A stretch of 64,000 nt of DNA from Escherichia coli (GTDB taxonomy: Bacteria > Pseudomonadota > Gammaproteobacteria > Enterobacterales > Enterobacteriaceae). Shown here piece after piece: positions 3 to 28,236 of this stretch; position 1 is the first letter of the stretch, and each line of letters opens with the position of its first letter. Position numbers and translations under genes: made by a program. The DNA lies in the NCBI RefSeq assembly GCF_045037415.1, contig NZ_CP173438.1. One strand, written 5' to 3'. The notes under the pieces were generated by a model. The model searched no databases. It had not been told where the DNA came from and saw nothing but the letters and a program-made list of their open reading frames with translations.

Positions 3-722
3 GTATTACAAATTACGCGTAGTGAACTGGCAGAGTCCAGCAAACTGGCGGCGCTTGGACAGATGGCAACCGAAATTGCCCATGAACAAAATCAACCGTT
101 AGCCGCCATTCACGCACTTACTGATAACGCGCGTACTATGCTAAAAAAAGAGATGTATCCACAGGTTGAACAGAATCTGAAACACATTATTTCCGTGATT
201 GAGCGGATGACGCAGCTCATTTCCGAACTTAAAGCATTTGCCTCGCGCCATCGCGTACCTAAAGGTTCTGCCGATGTCATCAAAGTGATGTATAGCGCCG
301 TGGCGTTACTTAATCACAGCATGGAGAAAAATAACATTGAGCGACGAATAAAAGCCCCATCCATGCCGTTATTTGTCAATTGCGATGAACTCGGTCTTGA
401 ACAGATATTCAGTAATTTAATTAGCAACGCCTTAGATTCTATGGAAGGTAGCTCTTACAAACGACTGGATATCGCCATTCGCCAGGCAAATAACAAAGTT
501 ATTATTACCATTAAAGACAGCGGTGGCGGTTTTGCACCTGAAGTTGTCGATCGCATATTTGAACCATTTTTTACCACTAAACGTAGAGGAATGGGGTTGG
601 GACTGGCAATAGTCAGCGAAATTGTCCGAAATTCGAACGGCGCACTCCACGCCAGTAATCATCCTGAAGGCGGCGCAGTAATGACATTAACCTGGCCTGA
701 ATGGGGAGAAAAACATGAATAA
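3..722 (+). CDS. kguS: sensor histidine kinase, C-terminal part (5' end lies upstream of the window)
   Basis: Open frame from window edge; H-box (ATEIAHE) and HATPase_c-like C-terminus (DSGGGF, GMGLGL); 8-bp overlap with downstream response regulator; context matches the alpha-ketoglutarate utilisation island described in UPEC. Confidence 0.6.
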   Translation, partial: VLQITRSELAESSKLAALGQMATEIAHEQNQPLAAIHALTDNARTMLKKEMYPQVEQNLKHIISVIERMTQLISELKAFASRHRVPKGSADVIKVMYSAVALLNHSMEKNNIERRIKAPSMPLFVNCDELGLEQIFSNLISNALDSMEGSSYKRLDIAIRQANNKVIITIKDSGGGFAPEVVDRIFEPFFTTKRRGMGLGLAIVSEIVRNSNGALHASNHPEGGAVMTLTWPEWGEKHE

Positions 723-2073
723 TAAATTCAGTGAAATTACTATAGTTTATATTGAGGATAGTGACGATGTACGTTTTGCCTGTGAACAAACGCTCACGCT
801 GGCTGGTTATCGCGTTATTTCCTGTTGCGATGCAGAACACAGTATTCCCCTTATTCAAAGTCAGGCCAACATTATTATACTGACCGATGTCAGGTTACCT
901 GGAATATCAGGACTAGAGCTCCTCAGTTACATCAACGAAATGGATAGCAAAATTCCGGTTATTTTAATTACCGGACACGGTGACGTGGAAATGGCGGTGG
1001 ATGCCATGCGTAATGGTGCATTCGATTTCATTGAGAAACCAAGTAGCTCAGATAAATTATTGAGTATTATTGCCAGAGCGGTAGAAAAACGGCGATTGGT
1101 TTTAGAAAATCAGCAATTACTGGCGAATCTGCAACAGGAAAATGGCCCGGTGCTGATTGGTCGTAGTCCGCAGATGCAGCAACTGCGTAAAATGATCCTT
1201 AATGTCGCAGATACCGGTGCCGATGTCCTTATTTATGGTGAAACAGGTTGTGGTAAAGAAGTCGTCGCCAGAATGCTGCATCACTGGAGTACCCGCCGTC
1301 AGGGGCAGTTTGTTGCCTTAAACTGTGCAGGCTTACCAGAAACGTTGTTTGAAAGCGAAATATTTGGTCATGAGGCGGGCGCATTTACCGGTGCGGTTAA
1401 AAAGCGTATTGGAAAAATTGAACATGCAAATGGTGGTACGTTATTTCTCGATGAAATAGAGGGAATGCCATCAGGAATGCAGGTAAAACTGCTACGTGTA
1501 TTGCAGGAAAGAACCATTGAACGATTAGGTGCCAATCAATTAATTCCGGTGAATTGCCGTGTTATTGCAGCGACCAAGGAAGATTTACTGCGTCGCAGCG
1601 AAGAACATCTGTTTCGTCTCGATCTCTATTATCGTCTGAATGTGGTTAGCCTGAATATTCCACCTCTACGCCAGCGACGAGAAGATATCCCTGAACTGTT
1701 TTACTGGTTCGCCAGTCAGGCGGCACAAAAATATAATCGTCCTCTGCCTGATATTTCTCCCATGTTACTGGCCTGGTTGCAGTCACAAAGTTGGCCTGGC
1801 AATGTACGTGAACTTAAACACAATGCAGAGCGTTTTGTTCTCGGTTTACTGACCCACCACCAGCCAGTGCCAATGACTCAGCAAGAAGAGAGTGGTCTTA
1901 CCGCCTGCATTGATGCTTTCGAGAAAAAGTTAATCGAAGATATGCTGCGACAAACGGAAGGCCAGGTCAGTTTGACAGCGCGGCTATTACAGCTGCCGCG
2001 CAAGACTTTATATGACAAACTCAACAAACATCAGATTCAACCGCAAGTTTATCGACCAGAATCATCCAGCTAA
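715..2073 (+). CDS. kguR: sigma54-dependent response regulator (NtrC family: receiver + AAA+ sigma54 activator + C-terminal HTH)
   Basis: 452 aa; receiver domain, Walker A GETGCGKE, GAFTGA motif, C-terminal Fis-type HTH; not identical to ZraR. Confidence 0.65.
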   Translation: MNNKFSEITIVYIEDSDDVRFACEQTLTLAGYRVISCCDAEHSIPLIQSQANIIILTDVRLPGISGLELLSYINEMDSKIPVILITGHGDVEMAVDAMRNGAFDFIEKPSSSDKLLSIIARAVEKRRLVLENQQLLANLQQENGPVLIGRSPQMQQLRKMILNVADTGADVLIYGETGCGKEVVARMLHHWSTRRQGQFVALNCAGLPETLFESEIFGHEAGAFTGAVKKRIGKIEHANGGTLFLDEIEGMPSGMQVKLLRVLQERTIERLGANQLIPVNCRVIAATKEDLLRRSEEHLFRLDLYYRLNVVSLNIPPLRQRREDIPELFYWFASQAAQKYNRPLPDISPMLLAWLQSQSWPGNVRELKHNAERFVLGLLTHHQPVPMTQQEESGLTACIDAFEKKLIEDMLRQTEGQVSLTARLLQLPRKTLYDKLNKHQIQPQVYRPESSS

Positions 2074-3135
2074 TGCTGATTCCTGAGGATGTAACCCCAA
2101 ATCGATACCTTTGCGGGCGTAATGTTCAACTACCCAGGACCAGAATGATACCGGGATCGTAATCATCTTCGCATTGCGTTCCCGGTTGGCAGCTTCTGGC
2201 ATACCGGGGTAAATCACCGGATTGCCGCCAGGTTGAGGCTGCGTAGCTAACAGATAATCCGCAAAGAACTGCCCTTTCTCCCCTGCCAGATCGGTGAATT
2301 GATCAGGATCGATAATCAACGCAAAAAGATGATTATGCGCAGATCCATCCGTCTGATGATCTTCGGCGATCGTGTCACCACCAGATAAGATCCCCGCCAT
2401 CATTTCAATCATCAGTGCCAGGCCAAATCCTTTATGCTCACCAAATGGCAGTAACGCCCCTGGAGGATTGCTGAATAACACCCCAGGATCATTGCTTGGA
2501 TTCCCCTGTGCATCAATCAATTGTCCCGGCGCGGCCTGCTTCCCGGTGGACGACATTACCCGTGCTTTATTTAGCGCCATGCTACTGGTGGCAAAATCAA
2601 CCAGAATCGGCGGACGCCCATCACTGAACGGCCAGGCAAAGCAGAAAGGGTTAGTGGTCATACGCGGTTCCGCACCGCCCCACGGGGCGACCAGTGCAGG
2701 ACGCCCGGTGACGTTACTCATGGCCAGCATCGCCAGGCCTTGATCAGCAACCATTTGCCCGTAATGCCCCATACGCCCTAAATGATGCGCATGGCACAAC
2801 GTTAACAGGCAAAAACCGCGGTGTTTTGTTTGTTCGATGGCAGCATTTACCGCCACTTTTCCGGCGTGTTGACCAAAGCCATTGTGGGCATGAAAACGCT
2901 GTAAATTACCTTCACTTGTTAAGCATTCCGGGCGGGCATTCGCGGTTACATCGCCACGAGCGATATTTTCCAGATATTTCGGTAGCAGCGTGACGCCGTG
3001 GCTGGCAAAGCCATAACGTTCCGCTTCAATCATATGTTCCGCCACATCCTGAGCGATATCGGCATCACAGCCATTAAGTTCCAGCAGCCCGGCAGCTAAC
3101 CAACGCACTTTTTCAACAGCAATTTGTAATGACAT
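2062..3135 (-). CDS. Ldh_2 family (malate/L-lactate dehydrogenase-like) NAD(P)-dependent oxidoreductase
   Basis: ORF 2062..3273 trimmed to ATG at 3135 (MSLQIAVEKV...) preceded by GAGGA RBS; longer ORF would overlap the upstream permease. Confidence 0.6.
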   Translation of the reverse strand: MSLQIAVEKVRWLAAGLLELNGCDADIAQDVAEHMIEAERYGFASHGVTLLPKYLENIARGDVTANARPECLTSEGNLQRFHAHNGFGQHAGKVAVNAAIEQTKHRGFCLLTLCHAHHLGRMGHYGQMVADQGLAMLAMSNVTGRPALVAPWGGAEPRMTTNPFCFAWPFSDGRPPILVDFATSSMALNKARVMSSTGKQAAPGQLIDAQGNPSNDPGVLFSNPPGALLPFGEHKGFGLALMIEMMAGILSGGDTIAEDHQTDGSAHNHLFALIIDPDQFTDLAGEKGQFFADYLLATQPQPGGNPVIYPGMPEAANRERNAKMITIPVSFWSWVVEHYARKGIDLGLHPQESALAG

Positions 3136-3146
3136 CGTTGGTTTCC

Positions 3147-4646
3147 TCACATTAGACCTAAAATTTTCCACCAGGTGGCGGCAAACAGTAGCAACAACAG
3201 GTAGCCGATTACCGTCAGGTACAGTCCCACACGGGTAAACTGGCGTGGCGTGAAGGTATCCGTACCCATACACACCATATTTTGTGGCGCGTTAATCGGC
3301 AGGATGAAGCCAAAACTGACACTGAAGGCGAGCAGAATGGTCATGCCGACCGGGTTAACGCCGAGTTCTGGCGGCAGACTGCTTAACAGGCTAATCAGGA
3401 TGGGCAGCAATGCGGCAGTTAGCGCAGTGGCACTGGCAAACCCCAGGTGAATGATTATCAAGAAAGCGGCGAGAATCGCGAAGATGGCAAGTGATGGTAA
3501 ACCGTCAAGACCAAAACCTTTCACCACATAGTTCGCCATCCATGAAGCTGCCTGTGTATCAAGCAACGTGGACCCCAGGCTGATACCAATACCAAACATC
3601 AGCAACGTGCCCCACTGCACACGTTTTTCGACCTCTTTCCAGCTCATTACACCGATGCCTGGCAGCAACATAATCGCCAGTCCGGCAAGGGTGACAGAGG
3701 TGGTATCAATACTGTGTAATTTTCCGCCAGTAGACCAAAAGAGCAGTAACAACAGCGAAATACCGATCAAGCGTTTTTCTTTACCGGTGGTTGGCCCTAA
3801 CTCTGCGAGTGCTTTTTTAATGGCCTCGCTCCCCCCTTCAACAGCTTCCGTTTCTGGCGGCAACAATTTACGTGCGAGGAAATAGAGGATCACCGACATG
3901 GTGAGGCTCCAGGGCGCGCCCGCTAACAGCCAGTCAAGCCAGCTGACAGAATGCCCGGCGCCGAAAGTTTTATTGATAAAACCGATAGAAAGCAGGTTTT
4001 GCGCCGACGAAGTTTGAATACCAACGTTCCAGATACTGGTCGCCTGGGCGATAACAATCATCATTGACGCCGCTAAACGTGAATGTTTATCCACCTTAAA
4101 TGCCGCAATGACCCCCATCATAATCGGCACCACGCAAGCCGTACGGGCAGTGGCACTGGGTACGACCAGGCTCAGGACGATGGTCACCACAATGGCACCG
4201 ATAATAATGCTGCGGCTACTGGCACCTATTTTCGACATAGTAAACAGCGCAATACGTTTATCCAGCCCGGTAATGGTCATTGCCGCCGCGATAAACATTG
4301 CTGCTGCCACCAGCGCCAGAGCAGAATTAGAAAAACCCGACAGAGTCATTTTCAGCGCTTTCGCGGTGCCAAGGATCGTGTCCGGGTGATTCATATCCGG
4401 GGCAAAACCAACCATAAAGATAATCAGTGCGGAAATAACAATTGCACTGGCGGTGTAATCCATCGCTTCGCTGATCCAGACAATAATGGCAAACACCAGA
4501 ATGGCGATCATATTTTGTCCGGCGACGGGCAAGGTATCGCCCAGAGGCAGAAGAGTAATAATAATTCCGGCAATGATCGCCAACCACAGGCCGGGATTAG
4601 GGATAATTCGACGCTTTTGTGGTGCGCCATGTGATATTGATGACAT
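3147..4646 (-). CDS. anion permease (ArsB/NhaD/DASS-type), putative dicarboxylate/oxoglutarate transporter
   Basis: ~500 aa polytopic membrane protein; first gene of a 2-gene unit behind a candidate sigma54 promoter; start ATG 4646 (GTG 4652 possible). Confidence 0.6.
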   Translation of the reverse strand: MSSISHGAPQKRRIIPNPGLWLAIIAGIIITLLPLGDTLPVAGQNMIAILVFAIIVWISEAMDYTASAIVISALIIFMVGFAPDMNHPDTILGTAKALKMTLSGFSNSALALVAAAMFIAAAMTITGLDKRIALFTMSKIGASSRSIIIGAIVVTIVLSLVVPSATARTACVVPIMMGVIAAFKVDKHSRLAASMMIVIAQATSIWNVGIQTSSAQNLLSIGFINKTFGAGHSVSWLDWLLAGAPWSLTMSVILYFLARKLLPPETEAVEGGSEAIKKALAELGPTTGKEKRLIGISLLLLLFWSTGGKLHSIDTTSVTLAGLAIMLLPGIGVMSWKEVEKRVQWGTLLMFGIGISLGSTLLDTQAASWMANYVVKGFGLDGLPSLAIFAILAAFLIIIHLGFASATALTAALLPILISLLSSLPPELGVNPVGMTILLAFSVSFGFILPINAPQNMVCMGTDTFTPRQFTRVGLYLTVIGYLLLLLFAATWWKILGLM

Positions 4647-4686
4647 ATTCACCTCATTGTGAAAAATAAAAAACCTGCCTGGCTAT

Positions 4687-4702
4687 TGCAGGAGCTATGC
4701 CA
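4687..4702 (-). promoter_or_regulatory. candidate sigma54 (-24/-12) promoter for permease/Ldh_2 operon
   Basis: Minus-strand TGGCATAGCTCCTGCA (GG and GC spaced 10) about 40 bp upstream of the start codon. Confidence 0.45.
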
Positions 4703-4762
4703 TCTTTAATTTTTTAATAATGCTTTGTTATTTAATGATTTTATTATTTATTCTTTTTATTT

Positions 4763-4783
4763 TGTGCGCGGTTTTCCGCACAG
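4763..4783 (-). promoter_or_regulatory. imperfect palindrome, candidate enhancer (UAS) for the sigma54 activator
   Basis: TGTGCGCGG-TTTT-CCGCACAG about 70 bp upstream of the candidate -24/-12 element in an AT-rich region. Confidence 0.35.
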
Positions 4784-4813
4784 TAAATAAAAGGTGATTC
4801 TCTTACCACACAG

Positions 4814-4839
4814 ATAAAAAAAGGGAGCGATATGCTCCC
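4814..4839 (-). terminator. rho-independent terminator after sucD-like gene
   Basis: Minus-strand hairpin GGGAGC-ATAT-CGCTCCC followed by T7 tract, 20 bp after the stop. Confidence 0.6.
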
Positions 4840-4857
4840 TTGATATTCATTTATGGA

Positions 4858-5730
4858 TTACTTAATAACATTCCATAACGTTTCGCCAAGCAACGCCGGG
4901 TTTCTTGTCCATGCCATGCCTGCTTTATCGAACGCACGGAATTTATCCTCTGCACTGCCGCTACCGCCAGAAATAATGGCTCCGGCGTGTCCCATGCGTT
5001 TTCCTTTTGGTGCAGTAACACCGGCAATATAACCTACGACCGGTTTATTCATATCATGGCGAATAAATTCCGCGGCCCGTTCTTCCGCATTACCACCAAT
5101 TTCACCGATCATAATTACCGCGTCTGTTTGCGGATCATTTTCGAATAAACGCAGCGCATCAATAAAGTTAGTCCCCGGAACCGGATCGCCGCCAATACCA
5201 ATACAGGTGGATTGCCCAAGTCCCAGCGCCGTGGTTTGCGCTACAGCTTCGTAGGTTAATGTACCGGAGCGGGAAACAATCCCAATACGCCCTGGGCGGT
5301 GGATTTCACCAGGCATAATCCCGATTTTGCACTCACCCGGCGTGATAACTCCTGGGCAGTTTGGCCCAATCAGCCGCACATCCGGGTGGCAGTCAAGCAG
5401 CCGACGAACTTTCACCATATCCAGTGTCGGTACACCTTCAGTGATCACCACAACCAATTTGACGCCAGCTTCAATAGCCTCAACAACAGAATCCAGCACA
5501 AACGGTGCAGGCACATAAATCACGCTGGCATCGGCCTCAGTTTGTCGCATCGCATCTTTCATTGAATCAAAAACCGGGCGATCCAGATGCCGTTGCCCGC
5601 CCTTACCAGGCGTCACTCCACCCACAATCTGCGTGCCATACGCAATAGCCTGCTCTGTATGAAATGTGCCGTTTTTGCCGGTAATGCCCTGCACCAGTAC
5701 CCGCGTGTGTTTGTTGATCAAAACGCTCAT
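4858..5730 (-). CDS. succinyl-CoA synthetase alpha subunit paralog (SucD-like)
   Basis: 290 aa, strongly SucD-like (CoA-binding GxTG, GHAGA phospho-His region). Confidence 0.85.
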
Positions 5731-5742
5731 CTTAACCTCCTG

Positions 5743-6912
5743 TTAATTCAGTAACGCAATGATGCGTTTCGCGGCATCATCCAGAGAATCGACGGCTTCC
5801 ACCGTCAGACCACTTTCTGCCAGTAACCGCTGCCCTTCGGCGGCGTTATTACCGGAGAGACGCACCACGACAGGCAGGGTGATGCTGGCCTCATTCAGAG
5901 CATGAATAATGGCTCTGGCGATCATGTCGCAACGGACAATCCCACCAAAAATATTAACCAGAATGGCTTTCACTTTGCTGTCGGAAACAATCAGCCGAAA
6001 GGCTTCACTGACGCGCTCCTGGGTTGCGCCACCGCCAACATCCAGGAAGTTTGCGGGTTGTTCACCGTATAGCTTGATGATGTCCATGGTTGCCATAGCC
6101 AGCCCTGCACCATTGACCATGCAGCCGATATTTCCGTCCAGCGAGACATAATTAAGATCAAGCTTCGCTGCCTGGCTTTCGCGTGGATCTTCCTGGGTTT
6201 CATCACGTAGCACCTGGAGTTCCGGGTGACGATACAGCGCGTTATCATCCAGCGATACTTTCGCGTCTGCACACATAAATTCGCCCGTTTCCCGCAACAC
6301 CAGAGGGTTAATTTCCAGCAGGGCAAAATCCAGTTCGTTAAAGGCTTTCCACGCCTGATTAACCAGGCGACTAAAGGCAGCAAATAGTCCGTGTTCCAGT
6401 TGCAGAACAGCAAACATTTCGCGGATATGGCAAGGCTGCACGCCTGTCAGTGGATCAATGCTGACACTGCTGATTTTCTCCGGTGTCTCATGGGCGACTT
6501 TTTCAATTTCCACACCACCTTCCGGGCTGACAATAAACGTGACCCGCTGGCTTTCACGATCCACCACCATGCCAAAATAGAGTTCCTGGCGTACCGGATA
6601 AATGTTTTCGCACAGTAAAATACTGCTGACATACTGTCCTTCTGGCCCGGTCTGATAAGTCACCAGTTGCGATCCCAACATTTGCTGTACAAAAGCCTGT
6701 GCTTCCGGCAGCTGCTTAAGCACTTTTACGCCGCCAGCTTTACCGCGCCCACCAGCATGTACCTGCGCTTTAAGTACCGCGCCTTTACTCGGGCAAGCAA
6801 TATGTTGCCAGGCATCTGCCAGTTGCGAAATCTGTTGGATAGCTATCTCTTTTGGACACGGCATCCCCATGCCAGCCAGTAACGATTTGGCCTGATACTC
6901 ATGTAAATTCAT
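5743..6912 (-). CDS. succinyl-CoA synthetase beta subunit paralog (SucC-like)
   Basis: 389 aa, ATP-grasp N-terminus MNLHEYQAK..., SucC-like throughout. Confidence 0.85.
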   Translation of the reverse strand: MNLHEYQAKSLLAGMGMPCPKEIAIQQISQLADAWQHIACPSKGAVLKAQVHAGGRGKAGGVKVLKQLPEAQAFVQQMLGSQLVTYQTGPEGQYVSSILLCENIYPVRQELYFGMVVDRESQRVTFIVSPEGGVEIEKVAHETPEKISSVSIDPLTGVQPCHIREMFAVLQLEHGLFAAFSRLVNQAWKAFNELDFALLEINPLVLRETGEFMCADAKVSLDDNALYRHPELQVLRDETQEDPRESQAAKLDLNYVSLDGNIGCMVNGAGLAMATMDIIKLYGEQPANFLDVGGGATQERVSEAFRLIVSDSKVKAILVNIFGGIVRCDMIARAIIHALNEASITLPVVVRLSGNNAAEGQRLLAESGLTVEAVDSLDDAAKRIIALLN

Positions 6913-9550: not shown

Positions 9551-12295
9551 TCATGGCTGAATATCTGCAAACGCAGCAGCAAGAAATTCGTCGATTTGTT
9601 GTTTATGTACACGCCCATACCCTGTCGCTGGTGCTGCCGCTGCCGGGCGGCCTGCATACTGCCAGTAAGGAGTGTTAATTTTCAGTGCCGCCAGCTCATG
9701 ACGAATCTGCCGCCACGCGCCCTGGTTTTCTGGCTCTTCCTGCAACCAAATCCATTCGCAGCAGTTCGGCCAACTCGCCAGAACATCATTCAGTTCTGCG
9801 ACCGGGAACGGGTAGAGTTGCTCCAGGCGAACAATCGCTACCTCGTCTTCATGCTCACGCTGCTTACGGGCTTCCAGTACGTCGTAATAGACCTGGCCGC
9901 TACACAAAATAACGCGCTTAACTTTCTGGGACTGATGCAATTGCGGATCGGTGATTACCGGTTTATAAGCGTCATCAGTGAATTCACAAAGCTCGCTCAT
10001 CGCGCCTTTAAACCGAAGTAAACGCTTACTCATCATTATCACTAACGGTTTGCGCATTGGGCGTAATGCCTGACCGCGCAACAAATGGAACATTTGTGCT
10101 GACTCACTGGGCATCACCACCTGCATGTTGTTTTCTGCGCACAGTTGCAGCCAGCGCTCAGGACGTGCGGAAGAGTGCTCCGGCCCTTGTCCGTCATAGC
10201 CATGCGGCAGAAGAATGGTTAAACCGCTATAGCGATCCCACTTGGTTTCGCCAGACGAGATAAATTGGTCAATAGCAACCTGAGCGCCGTTGGCAAAGTC
10301 ACCAAACTGTGCTTCCCAAATAACCAGTTGCTGAGGCGCAGACGTTGAATAGCCATATTCAAAGGCTAAGAGCGCTTCTTCATTAAGCACCGAATCATAA
10401 ACATCGAAAGATGCCTGACCAGCGCGGATATGCTGTAACGGCAGATAACGACGGGCTTCCGTTTGATGATGTACCACTGCATGGCGATGACTGAACGTGC
10501 CACGCCCTGAGTCTTCACCAGAAAGACGCACACCAACACCCGCATCCACAAGCGATGCATAGGCCAGCATTTCAGCCATTCCCCAGTCTACTGGCTGAGT
10601 ACCTGCGGCCATATCCTGGCGTAACGCCAGTTGCCGTTTAATGGTAGGATGTGCGACCACATCGGGTGGCAGTGTAGAAATGATTTCACCATACGCTGCC
10701 AGCTTTTGCCGAGGCAATGCCGTAGATACCGGGGCGCTCCAGTGAGGGTTGGTCAACCCATACCAGTTAGCGCTAAAAGAGTGAATTGCAGGTTTGAGAG
10801 GCTGCGGTTCACGTTTCTGGCAGCTATCCAGCCAGTCGCGATAGCGTGCCGTCATCTCATCTTGTTGCGCCTGAGTTAACAGGCCGCGGCGGGCAAGAGA
10901 TTCACCATAACGGGCGAGCGTACCAGGGTGAGCATCCACTGCCTGATACATTTGTGGCTGGGTAAGACGTGGCTCATCGCTTTCGTTGTGTCCGTGCTTA
11001 CGGAAGCAGCAAATATCGATGATGATGTCACGCCGGAAGGTGTCTCGCCATTCGCACGCCAGTTCCATTACCTGGCAAACAGCGTCAACGTCATCGCCAT
11101 TAACGTGGATAATTGGGGCCGCTACCATTTTGGCAATATCGGTGCAGTACCGTGAAGAACGCATATCCTGCAAGCGGGAAGTGGTGAAGCCAATCTGATT
11201 GTTAATCACCAGATGTAGCGTACCGCCAGTGCCGTAGCCCTGAGTCTGCGATAAGTTAAACGTGGTTTGGTTGACGCCGAGGCCGCCCAACGCGGAATCC
11301 CCATGAATAAGTACGCCCACCACTTTTGCCTGACCATCCTCACCACGGCGTTCCTGCCTGGCTCGCACCTGGCCCAGCACCACCGGATTCACGATCTCCA
11401 GATGTGAGGGGTTATACGCCAGCGCCACATGCAGCGAACCGGCAGGTGTTTCCAGATTGCTGGAATACCCCATGTGGTATTTCACATCGCCTGAACCACT
11501 GCCGATCGTCTGCTTGCCTTCAAACTCAGCAAAAAGCTGTGCCGGGTCTTTATTCAACAGATTAACCAGAACATTAAGTCTTCCCCGGTGCGCCATGCCA
11601 ATGACCATTTCCTCCACACCTTGCGCACGCAGGCGTTTTGTCAGCGTATCGAGCGCCGGGATTGCACTTTCGCCCCCTTCCAGAGAAAACCGTTTCTGCC
11701 CAACATAACGGGTATGCAGATAACGCTCTAACGTCTCTGCCGCCATCAGTTTTTCAAAACGAGCAATACAGGTTTGGGCATCAGCTTGTGGCGCATTGCT
11801 GCTCTCAATCCGTGATAACAACCAGTTGATTTCTTCACGATTTTCCAGATGAGCAAGTTCATAAGCCTGGCTACTGGCCCAGGCTTGCTCCAGCAGGTTA
11901 AGCAGTTGCTTAAGTGGCATTTGCGTGGTGTGTGCGCCAAAGGTGACGCTAAACTCCTGCAACAAGTCTTCTTCGCTTAATCCCCAAAAACCAGGCTGGA
12001 GGGAGGGAACGTCAGCCGGGGGATTCAAACCAAGTGGATCAAGCTTTGCGCGCAGATGCCCCTGCGTGCGCCAGGCATTGATCAGTTGTATTACCGCAGC
12101 CTGTTTTTTTAAGGTCGCACCGCTGATATTGTTATCACCGGATACGCTTTGGACAGTCAGTTCAGGTGAAAGAAAAAAACGCCGCCAGTCTTCCGGGAGT
12201 TGTTCCGGCGTACGCAACCAGGTCTGGTAGTACTCTTCAAGCCAGGTCGCGTTATCTCCACTAAGCAGCGTGCCGGGCGAGGTCATGTTCTCCAT
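9551..12295 (-). CDS. 2-oxoglutarate dehydrogenase E1 paralog (SucA-like)
   Basis: ORF 9551..12418 trimmed to ATG at 12295 (MENMTSPG...) with AGGAGA RBS; >900 aa, SucA-like. Confidence 0.8.
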   Translation of the reverse strand: MENMTSPGTLLSGDNATWLEEYYQTWLRTPEQLPEDWRRFFLSPELTVQSVSGDNNISGATLKKQAAVIQLINAWRTQGHLRAKLDPLGLNPPADVPSLQPGFWGLSEEDLLQEFSVTFGAHTTQMPLKQLLNLLEQAWASSQAYELAHLENREEINWLLSRIESSNAPQADAQTCIARFEKLMAAETLERYLHTRYVGQKRFSLEGGESAIPALDTLTKRLRAQGVEEMVIGMAHRGRLNVLVNLLNKDPAQLFAEFEGKQTIGSGSGDVKYHMGYSSNLETPAGSLHVALAYNPSHLEIVNPVVLGQVRARQERRGEDGQAKVVGVLIHGDSALGGLGVNQTTFNLSQTQGYGTGGTLHLVINNQIGFTTSRLQDMRSSRYCTDIAKMVAAPIIHVNGDDVDAVCQVMELACEWRDTFRRDIIIDICCFRKHGHNESDEPRLTQPQMYQAVDAHPGTLARYGESLARRGLLTQAQQDEMTARYRDWLDSCQKREPQPLKPAIHSFSANWYGLTNPHWSAPVSTALPRQKLAAYGEIISTLPPDVVAHPTIKRQLALRQDMAAGTQPVDWGMAEMLAYASLVDAGVGVRLSGEDSGRGTFSHRHAVVHHQTEARRYLPLQHIRAGQASFDVYDSVLNEEALLAFEYGYSTSAPQQLVIWEAQFGDFANGAQVAIDQFISSGETKWDRYSGLTILLPHGYDGQGPEHSSARPERWLQLCAENNMQVVMPSESAQMFHLLRGQALRPMRKPLVIMMSKRLLRFKGAMSELCEFTDDAYKPVITDPQLHQSQKVKRVILCSGQVYYDVLEARKQREHEDEVAIVRLEQLYPFPVAELNDVLASWPNCCEWIWLQEEPENQGAWRQIRHELAALKINTPYWQYAGRPAAAAPATGYGRVHKQQIDEFLAAAFADIQP

Positions 12296-12330
12296 GTTTT
12301 TCTCCTGATGGTCATAGACAGCTGCATTAC

Positions 12331-12346
12331 TGCACAATCCGTACCA
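12331..12346 (-). promoter_or_regulatory. candidate sigma54 (-24/-12) promoter of the sucA-like operon
   Basis: Minus-strand TGGTACGGATTGTGCA (TGG...GC with canonical spacing) ~36 bp upstream of the start codon. Confidence 0.45.
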
Positions 12347-12440
12347 ACAGTTAAAAACACTAATTTTCAAAAACTTATAGAAAAGAGATGATGTAAAAGT
12401 GGGCGAAAAAAGGGACAAAATAGTAGGGAGTGGCTGGAGT

Positions 12441-12464
12441 CAGGAACAGGCGGAGAGATCCGCC
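12441..12464. promoter_or_regulatory. perfect 10-bp inverted repeat (candidate activator binding site and/or tyrB 3' hairpin)
   Basis: AACAGGCGGA-GAGA-TCCGCCTGTT, ~100 bp upstream of the candidate sigma54 promoter and 13 bp past the tyrB stop; no U tract. Confidence 0.35.
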
Positions 12465-12476
12465 TGTTGATTAAAA

Positions 12477-13670
12477 TCACATCACCGCAGCAAACGCCTT
12501 TGCCACGCGATGCACATTTTGCGTGTTAAGCCCGGCGACACACATGCGACCGCTGGCGATGAGATAGACACCAAATTCTTCACGTAGTTGGTCAACCTGA
12601 GCGGCACTTAAACCGGTATAACTGAACATGCCGCGCTGATTAAGCAGATAATCGAAATTGCGTTCTGGCATCTCTGTGCTCAATACCTTCACCAGTTCCT
12701 GACGCATTGCCAGAATGCGAGTTCGCATCTCTTCTACTTCCACCAGCCAGCTGGCTTTCAATGCCTCGTCATTCAGCACCGCAGCCACCACCTGCGCACC
12801 AAAATTCGGCGGGCTGGAGTAGTTGCGGCGAACAGTTGCTTTCAATTGCCCCAGTACGCGGCCTGCGGCTTCGGCATCTTCACACAGAACAGAAAGTCCG
12901 CCGACGCGCTCGCCGTAAAGGGAGAAAATTTTCGAGAACGAATTGCTCACCAGAGCGGGTAATCCAGCGCTGGCAATGGCGCGAATGGCGTAGGCATCCT
13001 CTTCCATACCGGCACCAAATCCTTGATAGGCAATATCAAGAAATGGGATAAGCTCACGGGCTTTGAGAATTTCAATCACCGCATCCCACTGCTCATTAGT
13101 GAGATCGGCACCCGTTGGGTTGTGGCAACATGGATGCAGCAACACAATACTGCGGGCAGGTAATGTTTTCAGCGTCGCCAACAGGTCATTAAAGCGCACG
13201 CCGTTAGTCGCTTCGTCATACCAGGGGTAAGTACTTACTTCGAATCCAGCCCCGGCGAATATTGCTACGTGGTTTTCCCAGGTAGGATCGCTGACCCAGA
13301 CGCTTGATTCCGGGAAGTAGCGTTTCAGGAAATCTGCGCCCACTTTCAATGCCCCTGAGCCGCCAAGGGTTTGAATGGTTGCTACGCGCTGTTGTTGCAG
13401 TACCGGATGGTCCGCACCAAACAGCAGCGGCGCAATGGCATGGCGATAGCTGTTAAGCCCTTCCATCGGTAAATAAAGCGAAGCACCATGAGGCTGCGCA
13501 TTCAGGCGCGCTTCCGCATCCGCCACGGCTTTCAGTTGTGGAATAATTCCGTCTTCGTTGTAGTACAGACCGATACTTAAATTCACTTTGTCGCTGCGAG
13601 GGTCTTCTTTAAAACGCTCCATAAGCGTAAGAATCGGGTCGCCAGCGTAGGCGTCAACTTTTTGAAACAC
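12477..13670 (-). CDS. tyrB: aromatic amino acid aminotransferase
   Basis: TyrB-like 397 aa from GTG start at 13670 ([13 protein letters not shown]...); ORF-finder N-terminal extension removed. Confidence 0.9.
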
Positions 13671-27720: not shown

Positions 27721-28236
27721 ATGGAAAAGACCACAACGCAGGAGTTATTAGCGCAGGCTGAAAAAATCTGCGCACAGCGTAATGTGCGCCTGACCCCACA
27801 GCGTCTCGAAGTGTTGCGCCTGATGAGTCTGCAGGATGGCGCTATCAGCGCTTATGATCTGCTTGATTTGCTGCGCGAAGCTGAACCGCAAGCCAAGCCG
27901 CCAACGGTTTATCGCGCGCTGGAGTTTCTGCTTGAACAAGGTTTTGTGCATAAGGTGGAATCCACCAACAGTTATGTGCTCTGTCATCTGTTCGATCAGC
28001 CCACCCATACTTCAGCCATGTTTATTTGCGATCGCTGCGGCGCGGTGAAAGAAGAATGTGCTGAAGGCGTGGAAGACATCATGCATACGCTGGCGGCAAA
28101 AATGGGTTTTGCCCTGCGGCATAATGTTATTGAAGCACATGGATTATGTTCAGCATGTGTAGAAGTAGAAGCGTGTCGTCATCCTGAACAGTGCCATCAT
28201 GACCACTCTATTCAGGTGAAAAAGAAACCTCGCTAA
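27721..28236 (+). CDS. zur: zinc uptake regulator (Fur family)
   Basis: 171 aa from MEKTTTQELL...; C-terminal Cys/His metal sites. Confidence 0.9.
   Translation: MEKTTTQELLAQAEKICAQRNVRLTPQRLEVLRLMSLQDGAISAYDLLDLLREAEPQAKPPTVYRALEFLLEQGFVHKVESTNSYVLCHLFDQPTHTSAMFICDRCGAVKEECAEGVEDIMHTLAAKMGFALRHNVIEAHGLCSACVEVEACRHPEQCHHDHSIQVKKKPR

What the first reader, a model, noticed from the sequence alone, without database searches (positions are those of the whole stretch)
4687..4783. Second candidate sigma54 promoter with a DctD/NtrC-like UAS for the permease/Ldh_2 operon
The minus strand carries TGGCATA-N4-CTGCA about 40 bp upstream of the permease start. Upstream in an AT-rich stretch (possible IHF bending region) lies the imperfect palindrome TGTGCGCGG-TTTT-CCGCACAG, which resembles TGTGCG...CGCACA-type enhancer sites. 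The sucD-like gene upstream ends in a clean intrinsic terminator, so the island appears organised as two separately sigma54-driven units.
Basis: seen in the sequence. Interest (0 to 1): 0.45.

Follow-up and report, generated by a model that had tools for sequence, protein, structure and literature searches.

The report
Known KguR/sigma-54 promoter of c5038

Summary
The window is the E. coli alpha-ketoglutarate utilisation island (kguS-kguR, c5039, c5038, c5037-c5032, tyrB). Its intergenic region differs from strain CFT073 by one base. In CFT073 this promoter has been characterised. RT-PCR gave two operons. 5'-RACE put the start site at the A 30 nt before the ATG, which is window 4676, so GG falls at -25/-24 and GC at -13/-12. 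Deleting rpoN or kguR abolishes expression. RpoN and KguR shift the fragment, and KguR binding is lost when the box is removed (PMC3694859, PMC5318444, PMC8716947). Comparison of ten kguSR-linked loci from six genera adds small points, all inferred. The KguR box is best read as 18 bp, TGTGCG-N6-CGCGCA, matching the Rhizobium DctD box at 16 of 18 positions, rather than the published N8 form. A degenerate second box lies 30 bp upstream. An IHF-like block sits at about -48. Interest is low.

The parts
4697..4702 (-). -24 element TGGCAT of the sigma-54 promoter Pc5038 (GG at -25/-24 relative to the published start site)
   Evidence: Read. Unique match of TGGCAY-N5-YTGCW in the window. TGGCA is invariant in 8 aligned sequences from 6 genera.
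4687..4691 (-). -12 element CTGCA (GC at -13/-12)
   Evidence: CTGCA is invariant across genera.
4676..4676 (-). Transcription start site: the A 30 nt upstream of the ATG
   Evidence: Published 5'-RACE in CFT073. I mapped it onto the window through the near-identical sequence. The base at 4676 on the minus strand is A.
4765..4782 (.). Proximal KguR box TGTGCG-GAAAAC-CGCGCA (minus strand), centred at about -97.5. The literature gives it as TGTGCG-N8-CGCACA, 4763-4782.
   Evidence: The published KguR shift is lost when the site is deleted. The box matches the R. meliloti DctD box at 16 of 18 positions. It is conserved in all kguSR-linked loci.
4795..4812 (-). Distal degenerate box TGTGTGG-TAAGA-GAATCA, 30 bp upstream of the proximal box and directly after the terminator T-tail. 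Candidate low-affinity second KguR site (inferred).
   Evidence: A TGTGYG-containing box lies 30-31 bp upstream of the proximal box in Escherichia, Citrobacter, Klebsiella indica, Entomohabitans and Pectobacterium. It has not been tested experimentally. The right half matches the consensus at only 3 of 6 positions in E. coli.
4718..4730 (-). IHF-like block TAACAAAGCATTA (WATCAA-N4-TTR with one mismatch), centred at about -48 (inferred)
   Evidence: Entomohabitans has a perfect AATCAATAAATTA at the same position. One- or two-mismatch versions sit at the same position in the other genera, and the alignment has invariant columns there. No paper read mentions IHF.
4703..4764 (.). A+T-rich spacer between the enhancer and the -24 element (88.7% A+T)
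4811..4841 (-). Intrinsic terminator of the c5032-c5037 operon (8-bp G+C-rich stem, 5-nt loop, T-tail)
   Evidence: It is 100% identical in divergent E. coli alleles. RT-PCR gave separate operons.
3147..4646 (-). c5038, a DASS-family dicarboxylate (alpha-ketoglutarate) transporter and first gene of the driven operon. ATG at 4646, Shine-Dalgarno GAGGTG at 4655-4650.
   Evidence: TIGR00785, 242 bits against a cut-off of 198.6. RefSeq places the start at the same codon.
2062..3138 (-). c5039, an Ldh_2-family oxidoreductase and second gene of the operon. It starts 8 nt after the c5038 stop codon.
715..2073 (+). kguR (c5040), the NtrC-family enhancer-binding response regulator that binds the box. 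Domains are receiver, sigma-54 AAA+ with the GAFTGA loop, and Fis-type HTH.
   Evidence: searches (sequence with GAFTGA; Pfam Response_reg, Sigma54_activat, HTH_8), and published genetics.

Best explanation
The stretch 4687-4783 is Pc5038, the sigma-54 (RpoN) promoter and KguR enhancer of the c5038-c5039 operon in the E. coli alpha-ketoglutarate utilisation island.

Shown, in the literature on a near-identical sequence:
- Transcription starts at the A at window 4676.
- It needs rpoN and kguR and is induced by alpha-ketoglutarate under anaerobiosis.
- KguR binds the inverted repeat, and RpoN binds the fragment.
- The upstream c5032-c5037 transcript is separate.

Shown here:
- GG and GC sit at -25/-24 and -13/-12 from that start site.
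- The terminator is strong.
- The promoter and box are conserved in six genera, and only where kguSR is adjacent.

Inferred mechanism:
- Phosphorylated KguR oligomerises on the 18-bp DctD-type box centred near -97, perhaps helped by a weak second box 30 bp further upstream.
- The A+T-rich spacer with an IHF-like block near -48 bends the DNA.
- This lets the KguR AAA+ ring contact sigma-54 holoenzyme bound at -24/-12 and use ATP to open the promoter.
For: - Identity of the locus: (one intergenic difference from CFT073).
- Sequence elements.
- Terminator.
- Published start site, rpoN deletion and complementation, RpoN shift: (PMC5318444).
- Published operon structure, KguR dependence, alpha-ketoglutarate induction, KguR shift: (PMC3694859).
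- Shift lost when the box is deleted: (PMC8716947).
- KguR domains.
- Conservation of the -24/-12 elements and the box in 10 kguSR-linked loci.
- Absence of both from 6 permease loci without kguSR.
- Similarity to the DctD box.
Against: Nothing contradicts the core reading. Weak points are:
- The sigma-54 motif alone is not statistically significant in 64 kb.
- Published binding evidence is gel shift with MBP fusions, not a base-resolution footprint.
- IHF involvement and the distal box are untested. The 2013 probe (-163 to +32) cut the distal box and still shifted, and removing the proximal box abolished binding, so the distal box is at best auxiliary.
- One-mismatch IHF-like matches are common in so A+T-rich a spacer: three occur in E. 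coli.
Confidence: 0.95

Rival explanations
1. There is no independent promoter. c5038-c5039 are expressed by read-through from the sucD-like gene (c5037), and the -24/-12 match is a chance occurrence.
For: The sigma-54 motif alone is expected 0.41 times in the window, and 35 of 100 shuffles have at least one match. The genes lie on the same strand, 211 bp apart.
Against: A strong terminator lies between the genes. Published RT-PCR gives separate operons. A 5'-RACE start site sits 12 nt downstream of the GC, and rpoN deletion abolishes expression. A plasmid-borne c5038 promoter fragment drove lacZ in the published work. The motif is conserved in Vibrio, where no suc genes lie within 6 kb upstream.
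Confidence: 0.02
2. The palindrome is an RNA or DNA hairpin (a second terminator or a REP-like element) rather than a protein-binding site.
For: It is an inverted repeat lying just downstream of the c5037 terminator.
Against: There is no T-tail on the transcribed strand, and it lies upstream of the mapped start site. No Rfam family reaches its threshold. Species differences are not compensatory: the half-site letters are kept (TGTGYG / CRCRCA) while the spacer varies. A second copy sits upstream of kguS in the loci from other genera, in the position of the published KguR-bound kguS box. KguR binding is lost when the box is deleted.
Confidence: 0.02
3. The box is bound, and the promoter activated, mainly by a different regulator such as NtrC, FNR or ArcA, with KguR acting only indirectly.
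For: Published work reports that FNR and ArcA raise c5038 expression. E. coli carries several enhancer-binding proteins.
Against: ArcA did not shift the c5038 probe. Deleting kguSR abolishes expression under all conditions tested. The box differs from the NtrC consensus TGCACC-N5-GGTGCA (my own knowledge). The box and promoter occur only in loci with kguSR next door. Anaerobiosis induces kguS itself, which points to an indirect FNR/ArcA effect.
Confidence: 0.03

Closest known systems
Pc5038 of E. coli CFT073 (KguS/KguR system; Cai et al. 2013 PLoS Pathog, PMC3694859; Cai et al. 2017 Front Microbiol, PMC5318444; 2021 Front Microbiol, PMC8716947)
   Same: It is the same locus. The intergenic sequence differs by one base (4721, A here and G in CFT073), and the -24/-12 elements, start-site base, KguR box and terminator are all identical.
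   Different: Only in description. The papers write the box as TGTGCG-N8-CGCACA and describe a single site with no IHF. Comparative data here favour an N6 register, and suggest a degenerate distal box and an IHF-like block.
Rhizobium/Sinorhizobium dctA promoter: sigma-54 with a tandem DctD upstream activating sequence (Ledebur and Nixon 1992; Scholl and Nixon 1996, as cited in PMC11077940)
   Same: Both have an 18-bp box TGTGCG-N6-CGCACA (16 of 18 identical), a sigma-54 -24/-12 promoter driving a dicarboxylate transporter, and an NtrC-family two-component activator. Both may have two sites of unequal quality.
   Different: The transporter family differs: DASS here, DctA (DAACS) there. The signal differs: alpha-ketoglutarate rather than C4-dicarboxylates. 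KguR was not shown here to be a DctD orthologue. The distal box in E. coli keeps only its left half.
Pseudomonas aeruginosa MifS/MifR-RpoN control of the alpha-ketoglutarate transporter PA5530 (Lundgren et al. 2014, as cited in PMC5318444)
   Same: An alpha-ketoglutarate-responsive two-component enhancer-binding protein plus RpoN is required to express an alpha-ketoglutarate transporter.
   Different: Different organism and transporter. Its promoter sequence was not compared here.
IHF-assisted sigma-54 promoters (for example Klebsiella nifH and Pseudomonas Pu; my own knowledge)
   Same: An A+T-rich spacer carries an IHF-like core between the enhancer and the -24 element.
   Different: IHF binding has not been demonstrated here, and the E. 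coli core has one mismatch.

Membership tests
Sigma-54 (RpoN)-dependent promoter | Conserved GG and GC doublets exactly one helical turn apart (TGGCAC-N5-TTGCW) | tested here: met
   TGGCAT-AGCTC-CTGCA at 4702-4687 on the minus strand. TGGCA and CTGCA are invariant in six genera.
Sigma-54 (RpoN)-dependent promoter | The doublets lie at -24 and -12 from the transcription start | tested here: met
   The published 5'-RACE start (A at -30 from the ATG) maps to 4676. That places GG at -25/-24 and GC at -13/-12 (coordinates, identity to CFT073).
Sigma-54 (RpoN)-dependent promoter | Transcription requires rpoN | not testable with these tools
   Published: rpoN deletion abolishes induction, complementation restores it, and His6-RpoN shifts the probe.
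Sigma-54 (RpoN)-dependent promoter | A cognate AAA+ enhancer-binding protein with a GAFTGA loop | tested here: met
   KguR has Response_reg, Sigma54_activat (1.8e-67) and HTH_8 domains, and GAFTGA is in the translated sequence. It is adjacent in all ten promoter-bearing loci.
DctD-type upstream activating sequence | An 18-bp inverted repeat TGTGCG-N6-CGCACA | tested here: met
   TGTGCGGAAAACCGCGCA against TGTGCGgaaatCCGCACA is 16 of 18 identical. The N6 register is supported.
DctD-type upstream activating sequence | Two tandem sites bound cooperatively | tested here: inconclusive
   The distal box at 4812-4795 is conserved in position, 30-31 bp upstream, in five enterobacterial genera. It has three mismatches in E. 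coli and no binding data. Vibrio has a different arrangement.
DctD-type upstream activating sequence | The activator is a DctD orthologue | not tested
   No NCBIfam equivalog reaches its cut-off: the best hits are NtrC at 379 against 558.6 bits and AtoC at 370 against 714. Among solved structures, the DctD chains matched only KguR's receiver region, residues 10-136. The protein is named KguR in the literature.
IHF-assisted sigma-54 promoter | An IHF core WATCAA-N4-TTR between the enhancer and the -24 element, bound by IHF | tested here: inconclusive
   There is no perfect match in the E. coli spacer. A one-mismatch block lies at about -48, a perfect match sits at the same place in Entomohabitans, and the position is conserved elsewhere. 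Binding cannot be tested here.
Intrinsic (Rho-independent) terminator | A G+C-rich stem-loop followed by a U-run at the end of the upstream gene | tested here: met
   Stem 4841-4821 with tail TTTTTTTAT. It folds at -17.2 kcal/mol, z = -5.0, and begins 17 nt after the sucD stop codon.

The most novel reading that the evidence does not exclude
The published picture of Pc5038, a single TGTGCG-N8-CGCACA site with no architectural factor, may be incomplete. The real enhancer may be a DctD-type tandem: a high-affinity 18-bp N6 box at 4782-4765 and a degenerate box at 4812-4795 abutting the c5037 terminator. An IHF site near -48 would complete an architecture kept wherever kguSR travels with this transporter, from Enterobacterales to Vibrio.
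Probability: 0.5. Interest if true: 0.15.

Novelty: already known. Interest (0 to 1): 0.1.

Why it matters
The element controls uptake of alpha-ketoglutarate, an abundant kidney metabolite, and the c5038 mutant is outcompeted in mouse urinary tract colonisation. It therefore matters for the physiology of uropathogenic E. coli, but that importance is already established in the literature. What this check adds is confirmation that a sequence-only reading recovered a real, validated sigma-54 promoter and enhancer. It also adds small refinements: the box register, a possible second site, and a possible IHF site. These could guide footprinting or a cleaner genome-wide search for KguR sites. The published search used N5-15 spacing and returned mostly sites inside coding sequences.

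Tried and rejected
- A sigma-70 promoter scan of 4300-5200 found no minus-strand candidate upstream of c5038, so I dropped a sigma-70 alternative.
- An exact IHF consensus search found no match in the spacer. My first guess, AATCATTAAATAA at 4740-4728, is not the conserved block. The conserved block is TAACAAAGCATTA at 4730-4718.
- An Rfam search of 4400-5100 at E up to 1 returned only sub-threshold chance hits.
- I looked for an N6 KguR box upstream of the other operon (12290-12700). There is none, even with two mismatches, so I could not define a motif shared by the two promoters.
- I could not reach the c5032 promoter in other genera.
- NCBIfam gave no equivalog-level name for KguR.

Full report
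**1. What is there**

- On the minus strand, TGGCAT is at 4702-4697, five bases follow, and CTGCA is at 4691-4687.
- The ATG of the permease is at 4646, preceded by GAGGTG at 4655-4650.
- The stretch 4703-4764 is 88.7% A+T, against 48.6% for the window.
- The palindrome TGTGCGCGG-TTTT-CCGCACAG occupies 4763-4783. The repeat finder extends it to 17-nt arms that are 82% complementary and centred at 4773.5.
- The upstream sucD-like gene stops at 4858 and is followed by AAGGGAGC-ATATC-GCTCCCTT plus a T-run at 4841-4811. This folds at -17.2 kcal/mol, z = -5.0.

Taken alone, the sigma-54 pattern is not significant: one match against 0.41 expected. The enhancer-type box is found at one site against 0.21 expected. 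The two lying together, in the right order and spacing upstream of a gene start, is unlikely by chance. My estimate is about 1e-4.

**2. What the locus is**

The ORFs, family scans and E. coli genome matches (1045 of 5426 complete genomes) identify the alpha-ketoglutarate utilisation island, inserted next to tyrB. Its genes in the window are:

| Gene | Window coordinates | Strand | Product |
|---|---|---|---|
| kguS | cut by the window start, ends at 722 | + | sensor kinase |
| kguR | 715-2073 | + | receiver, sigma-54 AAA+ with GAFTGA, Fis-type HTH |
| c5039 | 2062-3138 | - | Ldh_2 oxidoreductase |
| c5038 | 3147-4646 | - | DASS permease |
| c5037-c5032 | 4858 to about 12340 | - | sucD, sucC, lpdA, sucB and sucA paralogues |

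Aligned with CFT073, the c5037-c5038 intergenic region differs at one base (4721).

**3. What is already known**

- Cai et al. 2013 (PMC3694859) showed by RT-PCR that c5032-5037 and c5038-5039 are separate operons.
- The same paper showed that both operons are induced by alpha-ketoglutarate, that deleting kguR or kguSR abolishes their expression, and that MBP-KguR shifts both promoter fragments.
- It proposed TGTGCG-N8-CGCACA as the c5038 site, which is this palindrome.
- Cai et al. 2017 (PMC5318444) mapped the c5038 start site by 5'-RACE to the A at -30 from the ATG and annotated a -24/-12 motif.
- That paper also showed that rpoN deletion abolishes induction, that complementation restores it, and that His6-RpoN shifts the probe.
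- The 2021 paper (PMC8716947) showed that KguR no longer binds a c5038 probe lacking the box. It lists the site as TGTGCGGAAAACCGCGCACA.

Mapped onto the window, the start site is 4676, which is an A on the minus strand. GG then falls at -25/-24 and GC at -13/-12, exactly as a sigma-54 promoter requires. Their results support the reading.

**4. Independent comparative test**

A scan of one genome per species with the permease returned 16 loci.
- Ten have kguS-kguR and the Ldh_2 gene next to the permease. They come from Escherichia, Citrobacter, Klebsiella indica, Entomohabitans, Pectobacterium and Vibrio.
- All ten carry TGGCAY-N5-CTGCA 56-60 nt before the ATG and a TGTGYG-N6 box whose centre lies 71-73 bp upstream of the TGG.
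- Six loci with a related permease but no kguSR (Burkholderiales, Azotobacter, Paraburkholderia and a proteobacterial MAG) have neither element, even with one mismatch allowed.
- In Vibrio the suc genes are absent from the 6 kb upstream, yet the promoter is kept. It is therefore a property of the permease unit and not of the junction with sucD.

**5. Refinements (inferred)**

(a) Register of the box. Several observations favour an 18-bp N6 box, TGTGCG-GAAAAC-CGCGCA (4782-4765), over the published N8 form.
- The Rhizobium meliloti DctD box quoted in PMC11077940 is TGTGCGgaaatCCGCACA, which matches at 16 of 18 positions.
- The published kguS box is TGTGTGGTTTATCGCACA, also N6.
- In the 13-kb loci from Citrobacter and K. 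indica the N6 pattern occurs exactly twice: before the permease, and at 11.86 kb, upstream of kguS. In Pectobacterium the exact pattern is found only at the kguS-side position.
- Citrobacter, K. indica and divergent E. coli alleles change the last two bases that only the N8 reading needs (CA to TT or TA), while the N6 box is kept.
- The best inverted repeat is centred at 4773.5, the N6 centre.

(b) A second box.
- TGTGTGGTAAGAGAATCA at 4812-4795 starts right after the terminator T-run, 30 bp upstream of the proximal box.
- A TGTGYG-containing box sits 30-31 bp upstream of the proximal box in all five enterobacterial genera. It is nearly palindromic in Entomohabitans and Pectobacterium.
- In E. 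coli its right half is degenerate.
- The 2013 probe cut this box and still shifted, and deleting the proximal box abolished binding. It can therefore only be auxiliary, as with the unequal tandem DctD sites of dctA (cited).

(c) An IHF-like block.
- TAACAAAGCATTA at 4730-4718 is centred near -48 and matches WATCAA-N4-TTR with one mismatch.
- Entomohabitans has a perfect AATCAATAAATTA at the same position, and the other genera have one or two mismatches there.
- None of the three papers mentions IHF.
- Near-matches are frequent in so A+T-rich a spacer, so the evidence is the conservation of position and not the match itself.

**6. Mechanism**

The best-supported explanation runs as follows. KguS senses alpha-ketoglutarate and phosphorylates KguR. 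KguR assembles on the DctD-type box near -97. The bent A+T-rich spacer brings KguR to sigma-54 holoenzyme held in a closed complex at -24/-12. ATP hydrolysis then opens the promoter, and transcription of c5038-c5039 starts at 4676. The terminator at 4841-4811 insulates this unit from c5032-c5037. The genetic requirements, the binding and the start site are published. The looping, IHF and tandem-site steps are inference.

**7. Rivals**

- Read-through without a promoter is excluded by the terminator, the RT-PCR, the RACE start site, the rpoN phenotype and the Vibrio arrangement.
- A structural-RNA reading of the palindrome is excluded by three things: it lies upstream of the start site, its variation is not compensatory, and no Rfam family reaches threshold.
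- Direct control by another regulator is unlikely. ArcA does not bind, and the element co-occurs strictly with kguSR.

**8. Verdict**

Interest is low. The refinements above are incremental.

Noticed in passing
window 12331-12346 (minus strand) and 12290-12700: The only other match in the window to a relaxed sigma-54 pattern is TGGTACGGATTGTGCA, about 37 nt upstream of the sucA-like (c5032) ATG. No N6 KguR box occurs within 400 bp upstream, even with two mismatches. The published candidate site lies inside the 3' end of tyrB with N13 spacing, and in this window it reads ...AACACGCA where CFT073 has ...AACGCGCA. The three papers I read do not show rpoN dependence of c5032.
   Followed up: partly
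E. coli records H1-H3 (e.g. NZ_OZ369358.1 4943632-4947408; NZ_CM190152.1 374657-378857): In some strains the stretch matching window 3000-6000 is interrupted by an IS1 or an ISKpn26 (IS5-like) insertion. In one of them the permease is annotated in two pieces, so the operon may be inactivated there.
   Followed up: no
window 2062-2073: The convergent genes kguR (stop at 2073, + strand) and c5039 (stop at 2062, - strand) overlap by 12 bp at their 3' ends, leaving no room for a terminator between them.
   Followed up: no
window 4764 and 4721; loci L018-L020: A divergent E. coli allele of the intergenic region (about 95% identity) carries a cluster of substitutions in the spacer at 4733-4742, plus C4764T. 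The box, the IHF-like block, the -24/-12 elements and the terminator are untouched.
   Followed up: partly
L008 (Vibrio sp. Y2-5) 5859-5900; L007: In Vibrio the full palindrome TGTGTGGAAATTCGCACA aligns with the E. coli proximal box. The extra TGTGTGG half-site lies 23 bp downstream of it rather than 30 bp upstream, so the enhancer layout differs. L007 is labelled a Flavobacteriia MAG, but over the upstream stretch compared it matches the Vibrio sequence apart from a one-base indel, which suggests a binning error.
   Followed up: no
window 27783-27800: This is the only other near-match in the window (one mismatch) to the N6 KguR/DctD-type box: TGTGCGCCTGACCCCACA. I did not examine its context, and it may be chance.
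   Followed up: no
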